64,000 bases of DNA from contig CAZKWX010000001.1 in the NCBI GenBank assembly GCA_964556685.1, positions 11,417-75,416 on the forward strand. Reading direction: 5' to 3'. A model generated the notes under the pieces. That model was given only the letters and a program-made list of their open reading frames with translations, ran no database searches and had not been told where the DNA came from. Positions within the stretch are counted from its first letter, which is position 1. Each line of letters opens with the position of its first letter. Below are positions 4,444 through 9,984 of this stretch, piece by piece. Source of the stretch: an uncultured Bdellovibrionales bacterium. GTDB lineage: Bacteria > Patescibacteriota > Minisyncoccia > Moranbacterales > DUUL01. Both the position numbers and the translations under genes were made by a program.

Positions 4444-5424
4444 ATGGCGAAAGGAGCTAAAGAAATACAACGAAGAATAAAATCAGTTGGCAACACTCGA
4501 AAAATCACTCGAGCGATGGAAATGGTGGCCGCTGCCAAGATGAAGAAGGAAGTTTCTCGCGTTTTGGCTATTCGGGCATATGCTCATAGCGCCCAGATGG
4601 TTTTAACATATCTATCTCGAGCATTTGCTAAACAGAAGCATGGTTTGTTAGAAGTACGAGAAGTCAAGAGAATCTTAGTGGTCTTAATTACATCGAACCG
4701 GGGACTATGCGGTGCTTACAACACTCAGGTGATAAAAAGACTCATAGACCAAGTGGAAAACCCAAAACTTCTGAAAATCAACCGAGTCGGAACAAAGAGA
4801 ATCGAATCAACAGTGCCGGATGATCAGATTGAGTTTGACTTTATCGCAGTGGGAAAGAAAGGCTTTGAACAACTCAATGCACGAGGAAAAAATGTGATTG
4901 CTGAATTTGAAGATTTGAATTACACACCAACACCAGATTCTGTTTGGCCATTAGCCAAGATTGCTATTGATGACTATCAGAATGCAAATTATGACAAAGT
5001 AGTAGTAGCCTACACCGACTTCAAGAACTCTCTGATTCAAGAACCAAAGCTGCGTCAGATTTTGCCGATTTCAAAGATTGACTTGGAAAAGCAAATTGAG
5101 GAAATGAGTTCTGGGATTTCTGGTGATGAAATTCAGGAAACAGAATCAAAGGAAGAAGAGCAGATTGATTATACGATTGAACCAGATCCGCAAGTTGTGG
5201 TGAAACATATGTTGCCGAGGTTGGTGGAAATGCAGCTTTATCATGCCATTTTAGAATCTAATGCTTCACGAGAATCGGCTCGGATGATGGCTATGAAAAA
5301 TGCTAATGAAGCAGCAGGAGAAATGATACAGCTGTTGCAATATTCATATAACCAGATTCGCCAGATGGGAATTACTCAAGAGATTGCGGAGATCACTTCG
5401 GGAAGAACGGCACTTGAGGATTAG
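4444..5424 (+). CDS. atpG: F0F1 ATP synthase subunit gamma
   Basis: N-terminal IQRRIKSVGNTRKITRAMEMVAAAKMKK and C-terminal NQIRQMGITQEIAEI coiled-coil motifs characteristic of gamma. Confidence 0.9.
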   Translation: MAKGAKEIQRRIKSVGNTRKITRAMEMVAAAKMKKEVSRVLAIRAYAHSAQMVLTYLSRAFAKQKHGLLEVREVKRILVVLITSNRGLCGAYNTQVIKRLIDQVENPKLLKINRVGTKRIESTVPDDQIEFDFIAVGKKGFEQLNARGKNVIAEFEDLNYTPTPDSVWPLAKIAIDDYQNANYDKVVVAYTDFKNSLIQEPKLRQILPISKIDLEKQIEEMSSGISGDEIQETESKEEEQIDYTIEPDPQVVVKHMLPRLVEMQLYHAILESNASRESARMMAMKNANEAAGEMIQLLQYSYNQIRQMGITQEIAEITSGRTALED

Positions 5425-5518
5425 TTTTTATAAGCTAGTTATACGCTTTAATACTATCGCCAGTATTACGCCAGCGTATCACCAGCGTTTAGTCAAGGTG
5501 TATTACTGGCTTATATTT

Positions 5519-6073
5519 ATGTTGGAAGTTGAAGCTAAAATTAGAGTAAAAGACCTGGAAACCGCTAGAAAGAATCTCAAAAAGCTGGGAGCCAAAAAAG
5601 TGGAAGAAAAAGTCCAAATTGATAAAGTGTATGGGCGAGATTCTGATTTAGACGACGAGCATAAGGTAATTGAAGGAAGATTCAGCGCCAGGATTAGAAA
5701 GACTAACAAAGTCTGCCGGATTGATTTTAAGGAGATTTTGCGAGGCAAACCAGGCGACGAACATAACATTGAACTGAGTGACATTGATGAGGGTGATAAG
5801 TTTTTACAAAAATTGGATTATAAAGAGGCCTTCACATCGGAGAAGAAAAGGGAAATCTATGGATATGAAAGTTTTGAAATTTGCTTGGATGACTTTCCAA
5901 AACTTGGCTATTTCATTGAAGCAGAAAAAAAGATTGAAGAAGGAGAAAGCAAGGAAGATGCGTATAAAAGTTGTGTGGAAGTTTTGAAGAAAATTGATCC
6001 AAGGGGAGAGATTGAAAACAAAAAATATGGGGATTTGATTCAGGAAGTGATTAATGAGAAAGGGAAGTTTTAA
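5519..6073 (+). CDS. CYTH-domain protein (class IV adenylyl cyclase / triphosphate tunnel metalloenzyme-like)
   Basis: N-terminal MLEVEAKIRV carries the ExExK signature of CYTH. Acidic clusters downstream. The tool ORF 5384 start overlaps the atpG tail; the in-frame ATG at 5519 is preferred. Confidence 0.55.
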   Translation: MLEVEAKIRVKDLETARKNLKKLGAKKVEEKVQIDKVYGRDSDLDDEHKVIEGRFSARIRKTNKVCRIDFKEILRGKPGDEHNIELSDIDEGDKFLQKLDYKEAFTSEKKREIYGYESFEICLDDFPKLGYFIEAEKKIEEGESKEDAYKSCVEVLKKIDPRGEIENKKYGDLIQEVINEKGKF

Positions 6074-6080
6074 CACACAT

Positions 6081-6157
6081 GTCATCTCGACCGAAGCGAA
6101 GTGGAGAGATCTCATGACAACTCACGAGATTCCTCGACTACGCCCGGAATGACAGTG
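6081..6157. repeat. MITE-like element, family B (ATGTCAT..CGA ... TCG..ATGAC terminal inverted repeats)
   Basis: Shares the GAGATCTCATGACAA / GAGATTCCTCGACTACGC core with copies at 34258, 43219 and 60996. Confidence 0.7.
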
Positions 6158-6165
6158 AATTAATT

Positions 6166-6654
6166 ATGAAAAAGTACAATAAAACAGTTCAAGACATTAA
6201 AACGCTGCTGGAGAAAAATGATATCGAATACAAGTTCTTTGAGCACAAACCAGTCAGGACTAGTGAAGAGGCAGTGAAAGTAAGGCCAGATTATAGTTTG
6301 CAACAAGGAGCCAAAGCTATGATTGTCAAGCCCAAAATTAATGGCGAAAGAACATTCGTGATGCTGGTTTTGCCGGGAGACAAGCGATTTGACAACAAGA
6401 AGGTGAAAAAAGTTTTGGACGCTAAAGATGTTACTTTCGCATCCGAAGAAGAAGTCGCCAAATTGACAAATGGAGTAATCCCAGGAGGAGTTCCACCGTT
6501 TGGTAATTTGTTTGGACTGAAAGTGGTTGCTGATCCTGATTTATTTAAAAATGATGAAATAGTTTTTAACTGTGGTGATCAGAGCGCTTCAATTGCAATG
6601 AAGAGTGAAGACTATGAACGAATTGTCAAACCAGAAATTGTCGAGATAACTTAG
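6166..6654 (+). CDS. YbaK/ProX-type aminoacyl-tRNA deacylase domain protein
   Basis: ~160 aa. GVIPGGVPPFGNLFG and CG..SASI motifs resemble the YbaK/EbsC trans-editing domain. Confidence 0.6.
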   Translation: MKKYNKTVQDIKTLLEKNDIEYKFFEHKPVRTSEEAVKVRPDYSLQQGAKAMIVKPKINGERTFVMLVLPGDKRFDNKKVKKVLDAKDVTFASEEEVAKLTNGVIPGGVPPFGNLFGLKVVADPDLFKNDEIVFNCGDQSASIAMKSEDYERIVKPEIVEIT

Positions 6655-6757
6655 GAGCAATTTGAAATTTGAAGTTTGTAATTTTTATTCAATTTATAAT
6701 TAATCAATTTCGAATTGATTTCAAATTTTAAATTTCAAATTAAAAATTTTTAAAGCT

Positions 6758-8256: not shown

Positions 8257-8288
8257 GTATATACCAACGTATATACGAATGTATATAC
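8257..8288. repeat. GTATATAC x3 array (family D)
   Basis: gtatatac-caac-gtatatac-gaat-gtatatac: three copies of the palindromic 8-mer at 12-bp phase. Confidence 0.8.
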
Positions 8289-8307
8289 AAATTAAGCAAG
8301 TATCTTT

Positions 8308-9006
8308 ATGGTATTGCTCGGACTTACAACTTCAAAAAGATCAAATTGGCAGCAGAAAATAAGAGAAGCGTCATATTATAATATTGAAAAAATATCACTT
8401 TTCCCTACGTATTCACGGATATCTGAAAGAAAAAAACTCTACGAAGCGATTGATGGGAGTACCATTGTTGAAATACCTCATGTGCATCTGTGCCATGATA
8501 TAGAATTGTGGGAGCTAGATTATTTTGTTAAAGAATACAATACCCAAATTTTTAACATACACACTGAGAGATTATTTCCGCTGGAGAATGATATTTCAAA
8601 GTATAATTCCAAGATATTCGTTGAAAATGCAGGACTACCCACAGAGAATGAATTAAAGAAATTCGGTGGTTTCTGTATAGATTTTGCACATTGGGAAGAC
8701 TATATAAGATTAGAGGGAGAAAAGTACAATCCAGAAGAGGATAAAATCAGGGACTGGATGAAGAAGTATGATGTTGGTTGTGGTCACGTGTCAGCAATTT
8801 CAGAAGAAATACACGAAGATGAGGGCATTCCAGGAAGAATGTGTTATGCCTCGCATTGGATGAATAGTCTGGATGATATAAAATATATGAAAAAATATGT
8901 CAAGTATGTTTCTAAATATGTTAGTATTGAGTTGGATAATCCTTTCAAGGAACAACTCAAGGTGAAGAAATACTTAGAGAAAATTCTATATAAAAGGATC
9001 AATTGA
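8308..9006 (+). CDS. hypothetical protein, possibly xylose-isomerase-like TIM-barrel (sugar phosphate isomerase/epimerase) fold
   Basis: Conserved H/E/D-containing segments (IFVENAG, CIDFAHWED, CGHV). Inserted between atpD and atpC. Weak assignment. Confidence 0.3.
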   Translation: MVLLGLTTSKRSNWQQKIREASYYNIEKISLFPTYSRISERKKLYEAIDGSTIVEIPHVHLCHDIELWELDYFVKEYNTQIFNIHTERLFPLENDISKYNSKIFVENAGLPTENELKKFGGFCIDFAHWEDYIRLEGEKYNPEEDKIRDWMKKYDVGCGHVSAISEEIHEDEGIPGRMCYASHWMNSLDDIKYMKKYVKYVSKYVSIELDNPFKEQLKVKKYLEKILYKRIN

Positions 9007-9029
9007 TGAAGTGAAGAGCAAGAATTAGG

Positions 9030-9118
9030 AATTAAGATTTAAGAGTTCAAATCCCTCTGAAGAATATGACTCGCATAGCTCGTCTATATTTTTCTTCTCC
9101 CTTTGCTAAAAGGAGAAG
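9030..9118. repeat. Family G element (GATTTAAGAGTTCAAATCCCTC ... GCTCGTCTATA ... CTCCCTTTGCTAAAAGGAGAAG)
   Basis: Near-identical architecture to 1545-1622. Contains a tRNA T-loop-like GTTCAAATCC but no tRNA cloverleaf. Confidence 0.65.
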
Positions 9119-9214
9119 ATTGGAAAGAAAAGGAATAAATAACTATACAACGTTGCTGTGTCGAGAAATAGTACTTGCCATAGTAAGTACGTCCGAGCAC
9201 GTATTAGAATCATT

Positions 9215-9871
9215 ATGATCAGAAAAAATGTCCCATTTTATGCCAATACGGCAGACAATACACACTGCTTTCAGGCTTCTTTGAAAATGGTAATGAAGTA
9301 TTTTTGGCCAAATAGGAATTATTCATGGAAAAAATTAGATAAAATCACCGCAAAAATTCCTGGACTATGGACCTGGCCAATGGCAGGACTGATCTGGTTA
9401 CAAAAACAAGGAATTGAAATTGCGATGGTTGAAGCTTTTGACTATTCAAGATTCATAAAACTAGGAGGAGAATATTTAATTGAGGAATTTGGGAAAGAAG
9501 TAGGGGAAGCCCAGATCAAACACAGTAATATAGACCAAGAAATAAGATTTGCGAAAGAATTTTTGGAGAGAATTAAAATTGAAAAACGAATTCCCAAATT
9601 AAAAGACATAAAAAGATTTTTAAAGAAAGGTTATGTCATTATATGTAATGTTAATTCTCGCAAATTAGCAAAGAAAGAAGGGTATGTCGGTCATTTTATC
9701 GTTATTTTTAATTTTAATGATAAATATCTTTTTCTTCATAACCCTGGTCTTCCACCCCAAAAAAATCAAAGAGTAAGTTTTAAGCAATTTGAAAAAGCTT
9801 GGGCTTATCCGAATGAAAGAGCAAAAGGAATAATAGCGTTAAGAATTAACATTACTAACCAAGATATTTAA
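9215..9871 (+). CDS. C39-like papain-fold cysteine peptidase domain protein
   Basis: NTHCFQASLKMVMKYFW (Cys motif) and GHFIVIF (His motif) resemble Peptidase_C39-like domains. The tool ORF starts at GTG 9158; the in-frame ATG is at 9215. Confidence 0.4.
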   Translation: MIRKNVPFYANTADNTHCFQASLKMVMKYFWPNRNYSWKKLDKITAKIPGLWTWPMAGLIWLQKQGIEIAMVEAFDYSRFIKLGGEYLIEEFGKEVGEAQIKHSNIDQEIRFAKEFLERIKIEKRIPKLKDIKRFLKKGYVIICNVNSRKLAKKEGYVGHFIVIFNFNDKYLFLHNPGLPPQKNQRVSFKQFEKAWAYPNERAKGIIALRINITNQDI

Positions 9872-9984
9872 TAAATTTTGGACCACAACGCCTCGAAATA
9901 AAACGCCGCATCTATGACAGAGCAAGAAATAAAGGGGCGTAGTACTGGCGATTTAAGCAGGGCGTTCTACTGGCATATACAACA

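What the first reader, a model, noticed from the sequence alone, without database searches (positions are those of the whole stretch)
5384..9984. Conserved atpAGDC block split by four unrelated genes, with MITE-like repeats at every junction
Between atpG and atpD sit a CYTH-domain protein and a YbaK-type deacylase. Between atpD and atpC sit a TIM-barrel-like protein and a C39-like peptidase. Each junction carries a repeat: family B MITE at 6081-6157; a family G-like element plus GTATATAC array at 8140-8288; a family G element at 9030-9118. A further family G copy sits between atpE and atpF at 1545-1622. In most bacteria atpG-atpD-atpC are contiguous. The pattern suggests repeat-mediated insertion of cargo genes into the operon, or repeats acting as internal terminators or promoters.
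Basis: partly seen in the sequence, partly recalled or inferred. Interest (0 to 1): 0.6.

Follow-up and report, generated by a model that had tools for sequence, protein, structure and literature searches.

The report
ATP synthase operon with inserted genes
A tiny-genome (Patescibacteria/CPR) bacterium has picked up two pairs of ordinary genes on either side of the ATP synthase beta-subunit gene, in two separate steps. The hairpin repeats between the genes occur all over this stretch of genome and were probably not what inserted them.

Summary
The gene order is real: atpB-E-F-H-A-G, CYTH, YbaK-like, atpD, a small TIM-barrel protein, a C39-like peptidase, atpC, all on the + strand. The repeats are real too.

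"A repeat at every junction" is overstated. Multi-copy repeats sit at CYTH|YbaK, atpD|TIM and TIM|C39. Two of those three lie between cargo genes. The outer borders atpG|CYTH, YbaK|atpD and C39|atpC carry no multi-copy family element.

Relatives date the inserts:
- The closest atpG relative (L001) has atpA-G-D-C contiguous.
- A closer relative by atpD and atpC (L162) has CYTH, an extra ORF and YbaK before atpD, but atpD directly followed by atpC.
- None of 160 other Patescibacteria atp loci has these four genes nearby.

So there were two stepwise, lineage-specific insertions.

The repeats behave independently of the cargo. Family B sits at a different junction in L162. Nineteen of 45 spacers in the window share repeats. 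There are no target-site duplications, and no same-family pair brackets the inserts as a whole.

Across about 140 loci, gaps of 700 bp or more occur only at atpG|atpD (12/138) and atpD|atpC (7/115), with varied cargo. These junctions are recurrent insertion points.

The parts
16..1014 (+). atpB (F0 subunit a)
   Evidence: PF00119, E 1.3e-42
1136..1372 (+). atpE (F0 subunit c)
   Evidence: PF00137, E 4.5e-16
1479..1519 (.). Two adjacent perfect hairpins in the atpE|atpF spacer: H-type CCTCCTTT-agc-AAAGGAGG, then TCACGTCG-cttg-CGACGTGA
   Evidence: Hairpin scans
1540..1621 (+). Family G copy 1: leader (TAGG..AAGATTTCAAATC), central hairpin, terminal H hairpin. No cargo gene sits next to it.
   Evidence: 77% identical to 9041-9110 over 70 nt; alignment A1; fold
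1705..2205 (+). atpF (subunit b)
   Evidence: PF00430
2346..2750 (+). atpH (delta)
   Evidence: PF00213
2778..4340 (+). atpA (alpha)
   Evidence: PF00006, PF00306, PF02874
4346..4434 (.). AT-rich long palindrome filling the atpA|atpG spacer
   Evidence: Inverted repeat I2; fold z = -3.2
4444..5424 (+). atpG (gamma)
   Evidence: PF00231, E 2.8e-82
5429..5515 (.). 87-nt palindrome, single-copy in the window, filling the atpG|CYTH spacer (left border of insert 1)
   Evidence: Inverted repeats I6/I10; fold -34.5 kcal/mol, z = -6.4; no other copy in the window
5519..6073 (+). Cargo 1a: CYTH / class IV adenylate cyclase-like protein, 184 aa (start corrected from 5384)
   Evidence: PF01928; TIGR00318 at 70 bits, above cutoff; homolog lengths 180-187 aa; Logan gene call
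6080..6154 (.). Family B palindromic element with termini TGTCATYYCGA...ATGACA and no target-site duplication
   Evidence: Copies at about 34250-34390, 43219-43319 and 61007-61080, and in L162 at about 1853-1962; fold z = -4.7
6166..6654 (+). Cargo 1b: YbaK-like aminoacyl-tRNA editing domain protein
   Evidence: PF04073, E 8.9e-29. Below the NCBIfam YbaK equivalog cutoff.
6659..6748 (.). AT-rich palindrome filling the YbaK|atpD spacer (right border of insert 1). It is not conserved in L162, where a B element sits instead.
   Evidence: Inverted repeat I1; fold z = -3.65; L162 sequence
6758..8134 (+). atpD (beta)
   Evidence: PF00006, PF02874, PF22919
8146..8210 (+). Family G-like copy 3: same leader and terminal H hairpin, different short central hairpin
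   Evidence: Alignment A1; leader search; fold
8257..8288 (.). Array of three GTATATAC units at 12-bp period, ending 19 nt before the start codon at 8308. A degenerate array sits at the matching position before atpC in L162.
   Evidence: L162 3401-3436
8308..9006 (+). Cargo 2a: 232-aa divergent TIM-barrel protein, probably a metal-dependent sugar-nucleotide enzyme
   Evidence: No Pfam or NCBIfam hit; 68 homologs with invariant His/Glu/Asp columns; model pLDDT 95.9 with TIM-barrel matches. Homologs lie between RmlB-like and RmlD-like genes.
9026..9119 (+). Family G copy 2, lying between the two cargo genes of insert 2
9215..9871 (+). Cargo 2b: C39-like cysteine peptidase family protein (start probably 9215, not 9158)
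   Evidence: PF09778, PF11814 and PF03412 just above cutoffs; 450 homologs of about 213 aa at 50-64% identity
9973..9980 (.). Lone GCATATAC unit 4 nt before the atpC start codon. It may be a relic of the ancestral array before atpC (L162 has GGCATATAC in its array).
   Evidence: The match is post hoc and only suggestive.
9985..10428 (+). atpC (epsilon)
   Evidence: PF02823, E 5.4e-25

Best explanation
The window comes from a Patescibacteria (CPR) genome. Its F-type ATP synthase cluster keeps the canonical order atpBEFHAGDC but has gained two co-directional insertions flanking atpD.

Insert 1 (CYTH plus a YbaK-like gene, at gamma|beta) is the older one, because a related species (L162) shares it. 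Insert 2 (a small TIM-barrel enzyme plus a C39-like peptidase, at beta|epsilon) is found only in the window's lineage among the loci examined, so it is probably younger.

The cargo consists of ordinary chromosomal CPR genes relocated, or acquired from other CPR, by illegitimate or short-homology recombination. It carries no transposase or integrase. Inferred: the cargo is tolerated because gamma|beta and beta|epsilon are permissive break points of the operon, and it is expressed by read-through from the atp promoter(s).

The repeats (family B, family G, H hairpins, GTATATAC arrays, AT-rich palindromes) are small palindromic REP/MITE-like modules. They fill spacers throughout this stretch of genome and turn over independently of the cargo. 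Inferred: they act, if at all, as RNA or single-stranded-DNA stem-loops (mRNA 3'-end stabilisers, processing sites or attenuators), not as insertion vehicles.
For: SHOWN
- Gene identities and order.
- The arrangement is reproduced in independent Logan assemblies from several samples (L081, L175, L176).
- L001 is contiguous.
- L162 (atpD 90%, atpC 75%, CYTH 69-73%, YbaK 69% aa) has CYTH, a 171-aa ORF, YbaK, a B element, atpD, an 82-bp spacer, then atpC.
- No homolog of the cargo lies near atp genes in about 160 other loci.
- Cargo homologs elsewhere sit in unrelated neighbourhoods. The TIM-barrel gene lies in dTDP-sugar clusters. The C39-like gene lies elsewhere and without the TIM-barrel gene. 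CYTH lies next to NDK, Ppx-GppA and others in five further contexts.
- CYTH and YbaK have window-average GC. The TIM-barrel and C39-like genes are low (z = -1.4 and -2.1), which fits a younger arrival.
- Repeats are general and extragenic.
- The B element sits at a different junction in L162, and is 85% identical to a window copy while the coding DNA is 70-79% identical.
- G1 and G2 keep their central stem through three double (compensatory) changes, read from the ungapped alignment and the folds.
- Gaps of 700 bp or more occur only at G|D (12/138) and D|C (7/115) and at none of the other five junctions. Their cargo is varied: Fic, Bro-N plus a Gp49/HTH pair, DUF559, GIY-YIG, 23S-IVS protein, ORF6N, cyclophilin.
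Against: - Only two informative close relatives exist, and both are short contigs.
- L162 begins 213 bp upstream of CYTH and shows no atpG C-terminus there. Whether atpG lies directly upstream in that lineage is unknown.
- The TIM-barrel gene is bracketed by two G-type elements in the same orientation. A GTATATAC array and a lone GCATATAC unit bracket insert 2. Within this window the G leader occurs only in the atp cluster. A role of these elements in the second insertion is therefore not excluded.
- Co-transcription and any RNA-level role of the hairpins are inferred. No expression data were available, and the promoter and terminator scans were uninformative.
- The hot-spot census includes some redundant loci (for example L035, L129 and L132).
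Confidence: 0.68

Rival explanations
1. Repeat-mediated insertion. Dispersed G, B or GTATATAC elements provided the homology or recombination sites through which cargo genes were captured into the operon. In this reading the repeats at the junctions are scars of that process.
For: - G3 (8146-8210) and G2 (9026-9119) bracket the TIM-barrel gene in direct orientation.
- The GTATATAC array (8257-8288) and a lone GCATATAC (9973-9980) bracket insert 2. L162 has a degenerate array at the empty site.
- A HAD-hydrolase gene at 58053-58667 is also flanked by arrays.
- Within the window the G leader is confined to the atp cluster.
Against: - The B element is at a different junction in L162, which has the same cargo.
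- G1 sits in atpE|atpF with no cargo.
- The outer borders of insert 1 and the right border of insert 2 carry no element of families B, G or H, and no B, G or H pair matches across an insert.
- No target-site duplications.
- Repeats occur in about 40-50% of all spacers in the window. Their presence here is what any new spacer in this genome would acquire.
- No transposase or integrase lies within the inserts.
Confidence: 0.15
2. Functional recruitment. The inserted genes were fixed because their products work with, or need to be co-regulated with, ATP synthase. Examples would be a CYTH triphosphatase/adenylate cyclase acting on the nucleotide pool, or a peptidase acting on envelope or complex assembly.
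For: - CYTH and YbaK have been kept next to atpD across two species-level lineages.
- All cargo is co-directional and tightly spaced with the atp genes.
- A cyclophilin is kept between atpD and atpC in six other loci at 46-62% identity. Clade-level retention of an insert therefore happens.
Against: - None of about 160 other loci links these families to atp genes.
- CYTH homologs sit in five other contexts unrelated to atp.
- The cargo at these junctions in other lineages is heterogeneous and often selfish: GIY-YIG, DUF559, a Gp49/HTH pair.
- No known biochemical link exists between a YbaK deacylase or a dTDP-sugar-type enzyme and the F1F0 complex (my own knowledge).
Confidence: 0.12
3. Assembly artefact. 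The interrupted operon is a chimeric join at repeats.
For: The spacers are palindromic and repeated. The independent Logan contig L081 corresponds to window 1481-9106, and both of its ends fall inside H hairpins.
Against: Logan assemblies from different runs (SRR24302423, SRR29008691, SRR24302412) span atpF to the TIM-barrel gene with identical proteins and order. L162, from a different species, independently shows CYTH...YbaK-atpD.
Confidence: 0.02

Closest known systems
Split atp gene clusters of cyanobacteria and chloroplasts (one cluster ending in gamma, a separate beta-epsilon cluster), and the similar beta-epsilon separation in some other bacterial phyla. This rests on my own knowledge of the literature and was not tested here.
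   Same: The break falls at the gamma|beta border, and beta-epsilon behaves as a separable module. Here too, gaps of 700 bp or more among about 140 Patescibacteria loci are seen only at gamma|beta and beta|epsilon. Some relatives even have an orphan atpG.
   Different: Here the cluster is not dispersed. All eight genes stay in order on one strand within 10.4 kb, with two pairs of unrelated genes interleaved. Beta and epsilon are themselves separated.
REP / REPIN elements (repetitive extragenic palindromes mobilised by RAYT Y1 transposases) and their role as mRNA-stabilising stem-loops in operons
   Same: - Short imperfect palindromes that are strictly extragenic: 12 of 12 H hairpins and 12 of 12 GTATATAC units.
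- Multi-copy and modular.
- No target-site duplications.
- Stems kept by compensatory changes.
- They sit inside operon spacers.
   Different: No RAYT gene was looked for or found. Several unrelated sequence families coexist. The sequences have no Rfam match and no match in about 170 other Patescibacteria loci, except family B in L162.
MITEs (miniature inverted-repeat transposable elements)
   Same: Family B has terminal inverted repeats (TGTCATYYCGA / TCGRRATGACA), a size of 75-135 nt, several copies, and a variable position between related genomes.
   Different: No target-site duplication and no identified parent transposon. The internal parts vary by insertion of small extra hairpins.
Selfish-gene insertions in conserved CPR loci, such as homing-endonuclease and 23S-IVS-protein genes in rRNA genes (my own knowledge). 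Comparable small genes appear here in the atp spacers of relatives.
   Same: Relatives carry GIY-YIG, DUF559, 23S_rRNA_IVP, Gp49/HTH, Fic and ORF6N genes at the same two atp junctions.
   Different: The four genes in this window are not recognisable selfish or mobile genes. They are housekeeping-type CPR genes.

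Membership tests
F-type ATP synthase operon (atpBEFHAGDC) | All eight subunit genes present, co-directional, in canonical order | tested here: met
   Pfam hits for a, c, b, delta, alpha, gamma, beta and epsilon in that order on the + strand
F-type ATP synthase operon (atpBEFHAGDC) | Contiguity of atpG-atpD-atpC | tested here: not met
   1333 bp with 2 genes lie between atpG and atpD, and 1850 bp with 2 genes between atpD and atpC. Relatives have median gaps of 56 and 24 bp.
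MITE | Terminal inverted repeats, small non-coding size, multiple copies | tested here: met
   Family B: five aligned copies of 75-135 nt with conserved inverted termini
MITE | Target-site duplication flanking each copy | tested here: not met
   The flanks of the five B copies share no direct duplication (flanks read)
MITE | Related autonomous transposon with matching terminal repeats | not tested
   Only 64 kb of the genome was available. The window's proteins were not all scanned for transposases.
REP / REPIN | Short palindromes, strictly extragenic, in many copies | tested here: met
   12 strict H hairpins against 0.03 expected, all in spacers. GTATATAC arrays: 9 matches against 0.01 expected, all in spacers.
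REP / REPIN | Cognate RAYT (Y1 transposase) gene in the genome | not tested
Intrinsic (Rho-independent) terminator | GC-rich hairpin followed directly by a T-run | tested here: not met
   The scan found 9 sites against 9.1 expected. None is at a cargo junction, and only one is in a spacer (1448-1469, after atpE). The H hairpins are followed by purine-rich sequence.
Composite transposon / integron-like cassette | Cargo bounded on both sides by the same element, plus a recombinase or transposase | tested here: not met
   The borders of insert 1 are unrelated palindromes. Insert 2 has a G element and an array on the left but only a lone 8-mer on the right. No recombinase domain is present in the inserts.
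Known RNA families (Rfam 15) and tRNA-derived sites | Match to a curated covariance model, or a tRNA gene or fragment at the junctions | tested here: not met
   Only three sub-threshold miRNA/K10-type chance hits. ARAGORN found no tRNA in the window.
YbaK Cys-tRNA(Pro) deacylase (equivalog) | Score above the NCBIfam equivalog cutoff | tested here: not met
   TIGR00011 scores 54.7 bits against a cutoff of 153. The protein is a member of the Pfam tRNA_edit domain family (100.5 bits), so 'YbaK-like' is the safe name.
CYTH / class IV adenylate cyclase (CyaB) | Score above the family cutoffs | tested here: met
   PF01928 at 46.2 bits against 23.2. TIGR00318 at 70.2 bits against 57.95. Enzymatic activity not testable.

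The most novel reading that the evidence does not exclude
The two junctions flanking atpD may be preferred landing pads for gene capture throughout Patescibacteria. In this lineage the period-12 GTATATAC arrays, perhaps together with the G elements, would be the recombination or attachment sites that bound captured genes. Candidate cassettes are the TIM-barrel/C39 pair here and the HAD hydrolase at 58 kb. That would amount to an integron-like, recombinase-dependent cassette system that places genes under a strong housekeeping promoter.
Probability: 0.08. Interest if true: 0.65.

Novelty: new member of a known kind. Interest (0 to 1): 0.3.

Why it matters
The result shows, with dated intermediate states, that even the most conserved energy operon of a reduced CPR genome accepts unrelated genes. 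It does so at two specific junctions, gamma|beta and beta|epsilon, which are used again and again across Patescibacteria. This is useful for annotation: gene neighbourhood near atp genes should not be read as functional linkage in these genomes. It also bears on how operons evolve in genomes with few promoters. The window further documents a dense, undescribed set of extragenic palindromes (family B, family G, H hairpins, GTATATAC arrays) that turn over faster than gene order. Neither result is a new kind of system.

Tried and rejected
- tRNA-derived attachment site. The G leader TTCAAATCC resembles a T-loop, but ARAGORN found no tRNA and the stem does not fit.
- Known RNA families. Rfam at a permissive E-value gave only chance sub-threshold hits.
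- Internal promoters and terminators. Consensus scans were not above shuffles (37 against 28.3 +/- 5.8 promoter-like sites; 9 against 9.1 terminator-like sites), so they say nothing either way.
- Target-site duplications. None were found around the B copies.
- Remnant of the L162 171-aa ORF in the window. No tblastn hit below E = 0.1.
- atpG upstream of CYTH in L162. The six-frame translation of the first 230 bp shows no AtpG C-terminus. That question stays open.
- Closer relatives. Both large scans (genome contigs and metagenome contigs, with AtpG as query) gave nothing closer than 73%. L162 was found only through the CYTH homolog search.
- PDB relatives of the 232-aa protein by sequence profile. 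None.
- Literature. Searches for interrupted atp operons, MITEs or REPs in CPR returned nothing relevant.
- Coding-segment control. It was flawed because the random segments could overlap each other, so I do not use it.

Full report
**What is there.**
Pfam scans confirm a complete F-type ATP synthase cluster on the + strand: atpB 16-1014, atpE 1136-1372, atpF 1705-2205, atpH 2346-2750, atpA 2778-4340, atpG 4444-5424, atpD 6758-8134 and atpC 9985-10428. Four unrelated genes are interleaved:
- A CYTH / class IV adenylate cyclase-like protein. It also scores above the NCBIfam TIGR00318 cutoff.
- A tRNA_edit (YbaK-like) protein, 6166-6654.
- A 232-aa protein with no Pfam or NCBIfam hit, 8308-9006.
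- A C39-like peptidase family protein.

Two starts need correcting. CYTH begins at ATG 5519 (184 aa, like its homologs and the independent gene call). The C39-like gene probably begins at ATG 9215 (homologs are about 213 aa).

The 232-aa protein belongs to a family of at least 68 CPR proteins with invariant His/Glu/Asp columns. It has no sequence relative in the PDB. It models with pLDDT 95.9, and its best structural matches are all TIM barrels, including IolI-type sugar isomerases and Nfo, at low TM-scores.

**The repeats are real.**
- Family B (6080-6154) has three further copies in the window and one in a related species. It has conserved inverted termini, TGTCATYYCGA...TCGRRATGACA.
- G1 (1540-1621) and G2 (9026-9119) are 77% identical over 70 nt without gaps. 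Their central stems differ by three double changes that keep pairing.
- G3 (8146-8210) shares the leader and the terminal hairpin but has a different central hairpin.
- GTATATAC occurs 12 times in the window, always in arrays with a 12-bp period and always in spacers: 9 two-unit matches against 0.01 expected.
- A fourth motif runs through these elements. The 'H' hairpin has a pyrimidine arm CCYCYTT and a purine arm AAGRGGG. There are 12 strict copies against 0.03 expected, all in spacers.
- Most atp spacers fold as long palindromes, for example atpG|CYTH at 5429-5515 with z = -6.4.
- None matches an Rfam family, and there is no tRNA in the window.

Multi-copy repeats sit at three of the six junctions in the interrupted region. 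Two of those lie between cargo genes (CYTH|YbaK and TIM|C39). The borders atpG|CYTH and YbaK|atpD carry palindromes that belong to none of the B, G or GTATATAC families, and the one at atpG|CYTH is single-copy in the window. C39|atpC shows no significant structure.

The atp cluster is not unusual for this genome. Nineteen of 45 spacers of 40 bp or more share blastn-detectable repeats with another spacer, 17 of 35 outside the cluster.

**What relatives show.**
I collected 160 atp loci from species-representative genomes and from metagenomes, using AtpG as query. All window proteins were then mapped onto them with tblastn.
- No locus has a homolog of any of the four cargo genes within 10 kb.
- The closest of these, L001 (AtpG 73%, AtpA 79%, AtpD 86%, AtpC 61%), has atpA-G-D-C contiguous. 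Its spacers are 54 and 35 bp, AT-rich and free of hairpins.
- A closer relative surfaced through the CYTH homolog search. L162 has AtpD 90%, AtpC 75%, CYTH 69-73% and YbaK 69% identity. Its order is CYTH, a 171-aa membrane-like ORF absent from the window, YbaK, a family B element, atpD, an 82-bp spacer, atpC.

Insert 1 is therefore shared by the window and L162 and absent from L001. Insert 2 is absent from L162. The simplest history is two successive insertions, gamma|beta first and beta|epsilon later.

Composition agrees with this order. CYTH and YbaK sit at the window's mean GC. The TIM-barrel and C39-like genes are low (z = -1.4 and -2.1; GC3 z = -2.4 for C39).

Independent Logan assemblies from several runs reproduce the arrangement, so it is not a misassembly.

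**Where the cargo comes from.**
Homologs of the TIM-barrel gene (47% identity) lie between RmlB-like dehydratase and RmlD-like reductase genes, in dTDP-sugar clusters of two unrelated genomes. C39-like homologs (450 hits at 50-64% identity) lie in other contexts and never next to the TIM-barrel gene. CYTH homologs at 52% identity or less lie in five further contexts, next to NDK, Ppx-GppA, an exonuclease and others, and never with YbaK or atp genes.

The cargo thus consists of ordinary CPR chromosomal genes. They are not conserved units and carry no mobility genes.

**Repeats and cargo are uncoupled.**
- Family B lies between CYTH and YbaK in the window but between YbaK and atpD in L162. That copy is 85% identical to a window copy at 43 kb, whereas orthologous coding DNA is only 70-79% identical.
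- The window's YbaK|atpD spacer is instead an AT-rich palindrome.
- G1 and three other hairpins occupy atpE|atpF with no cargo there.
- The five aligned B copies show no target-site duplication.

These facts fit small palindromic elements that colonise and leave spacers on their own. They resemble REP/REPIN elements more than classical MITEs.

One point keeps the rival alive for insert 2. The TIM-barrel gene is bracketed by G3 and G2. The GTATATAC array before it has a positional, degenerate counterpart before atpC in L162 (GCATATAC..GTACGTAC-tcat-GTACGTAC). A lone GCATATAC sits 4 nt before the window's atpC. This places the breakpoint between the array and atpC, and is compatible with recombination at or near the array. 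The 9-nt match is post hoc, and arrays also occur between convergent genes.

**A wider pattern.**
Gap sizes were corrected for unaligned protein termini. Gaps of 700 bp or more occur only at atpG|atpD (12 of 138 loci) and atpD|atpC (7 of 115). None occurs at B|E, E|F, F|H, H|A or A|G.

The inserted same-strand genes are diverse:
- Fic.
- Bro-N plus a Gp49/HTH pair.
- DUF559 nuclease.
- GIY-YIG nuclease.
- 23S-rRNA-IVS four-helix proteins.
- ORF6N.
- A cyclophilin kept between atpD and atpC in six loci at 46-62% identity.

Some relatives have an orphan atpG downstream of rpoA-rplQ-rplM-rpsI.

The window is an extreme case, with both junctions carrying two genes each, of a recurrent permeability around atpD. 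From my own knowledge, the gamma|beta border is also where cyanobacterial and chloroplast atp clusters are split.

**How it most likely works.**
Shown: two stepwise, lineage-specific insertions of ordinary genes at permissive junctions, and repeats that are genome-wide, extragenic, hairpin-forming and positionally labile.

Inferred: the cargo is expressed by read-through with the atp genes. All genes are co-directional, no hairpin with a T-run lies at the cargo junctions, and no promoter signal rises above chance. The hairpins may act as RNA or single-stranded-DNA structures, in stabilisation, processing or attenuation, or they may be simply selfish. No expression data were available.

**Verdict.**
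This is a new example of known phenomena, operon interruption plus REP/MITE-like extragenic palindromes. It comes with a useful side result on insertion hot spots around atpD in Patescibacteria.

Noticed in passing
window 8257-8288, 36339-36370, 58011-58042, 58685-58716, 58899-58918: Every GTATATAC in the window lies in an array of two or three units at an exact 12-bp period, always in a spacer. Two arrays end 17-19 nt before a start codon (the TIM-barrel gene and the HAD hydrolase). Two lie between convergent genes. The HAD hydrolase gene 58053-58667(-) is flanked by arrays on both sides. Function unknown: operator, hairpin or recombination site.
   Followed up: partly
window 1479-1497, 58951-58971 and ten other H hairpins (list): The pyrimidine arm of the H hairpins (CCTCCTTT, CCCCTCCTTTCT) reads like the 3' end of 16S rRNA (anti-Shine-Dalgarno). 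The purine arm reads like a Shine-Dalgarno site (AAGGAGG). The hairpins are therefore intramolecular SD:anti-SD mimics lying 6-200 nt from gene ends.
   Followed up: no
window 39640-39667, 50291-50316, 50797-50830, half copy 47289-47315: Another palindrome family, TACTCTCATATATGCATATATGAGAGTA (26-34 nt, perfect), sits in spacers between co-directional genes.
   Followed up: no
window 26064-26226, 47095-47345, 54504-54642, 58760-58835, 60149-60318, 36470-36565: Composite spacer modules recur in varying combinations and orientations: CAGGAGTCGCC...GACTAACTCCCC, a TGAATTCA-N7-TGAATTCA hairpin, and an H hairpin. They look like a modular repeat system larger than the elements in the atp cluster.
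   Followed up: partly
window 56706-57630 and 57680-57876: A stretch of about 0.9 kb has no convincing ORF and carries direct repeats: 107 nt at 71% identity spaced 613 bp apart, and a 41-nt unit in three copies (D5 and D8). It could be a decayed gene or an RNA locus.
   Followed up: no
L091 10001-10996 (also L006, L010, L088-L090, L092, L093): A bona fide atpG (PF00231, 263 bits) stands alone with no other atp gene within 10 kb. It follows rpoA-rplQ-rplM-rpsI and a 2Fe-2S thioredoxin-like ferredoxin, and precedes an S1-domain protein gene and a UDG gene.
   Followed up: partly
L021, L026/L116, L045, L095, L100 (between atpD and atpC): A lipoprotein-like cyclophilin PPIase gene (PF00160) is kept between atpD and atpC in six loci at 46-62% identity. 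This is a clade-level fixed insertion at the same junction.
   Followed up: partly
L162 801-1316: A 171-aa hydrophobic ORF with no significant Pfam match sits between CYTH and YbaK in the related species. In the window, that position holds only the 92-bp spacer with the B element.
   Followed up: partly
window 10421-11965: A 514-aa ORF overlaps the atpC stop codon by 8 nt, which suggests translational coupling. It has no Pfam hit and only a weak Agl23 / flippase-associated (glycosyltransferase-like) NCBIfam hit. In L162, atpC is followed instead by a metallophosphoesterase and a PMT_2 protein, so the downstream neighbourhood is also rearranged.
   Followed up: partly
L081 (= window 1481-9106): Independent short-read contigs of the same strain, identical in length in three samples, begin and end inside H hairpins (1479-1497 and 9093-9119). 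These palindromes break assemblies.
   Followed up: no
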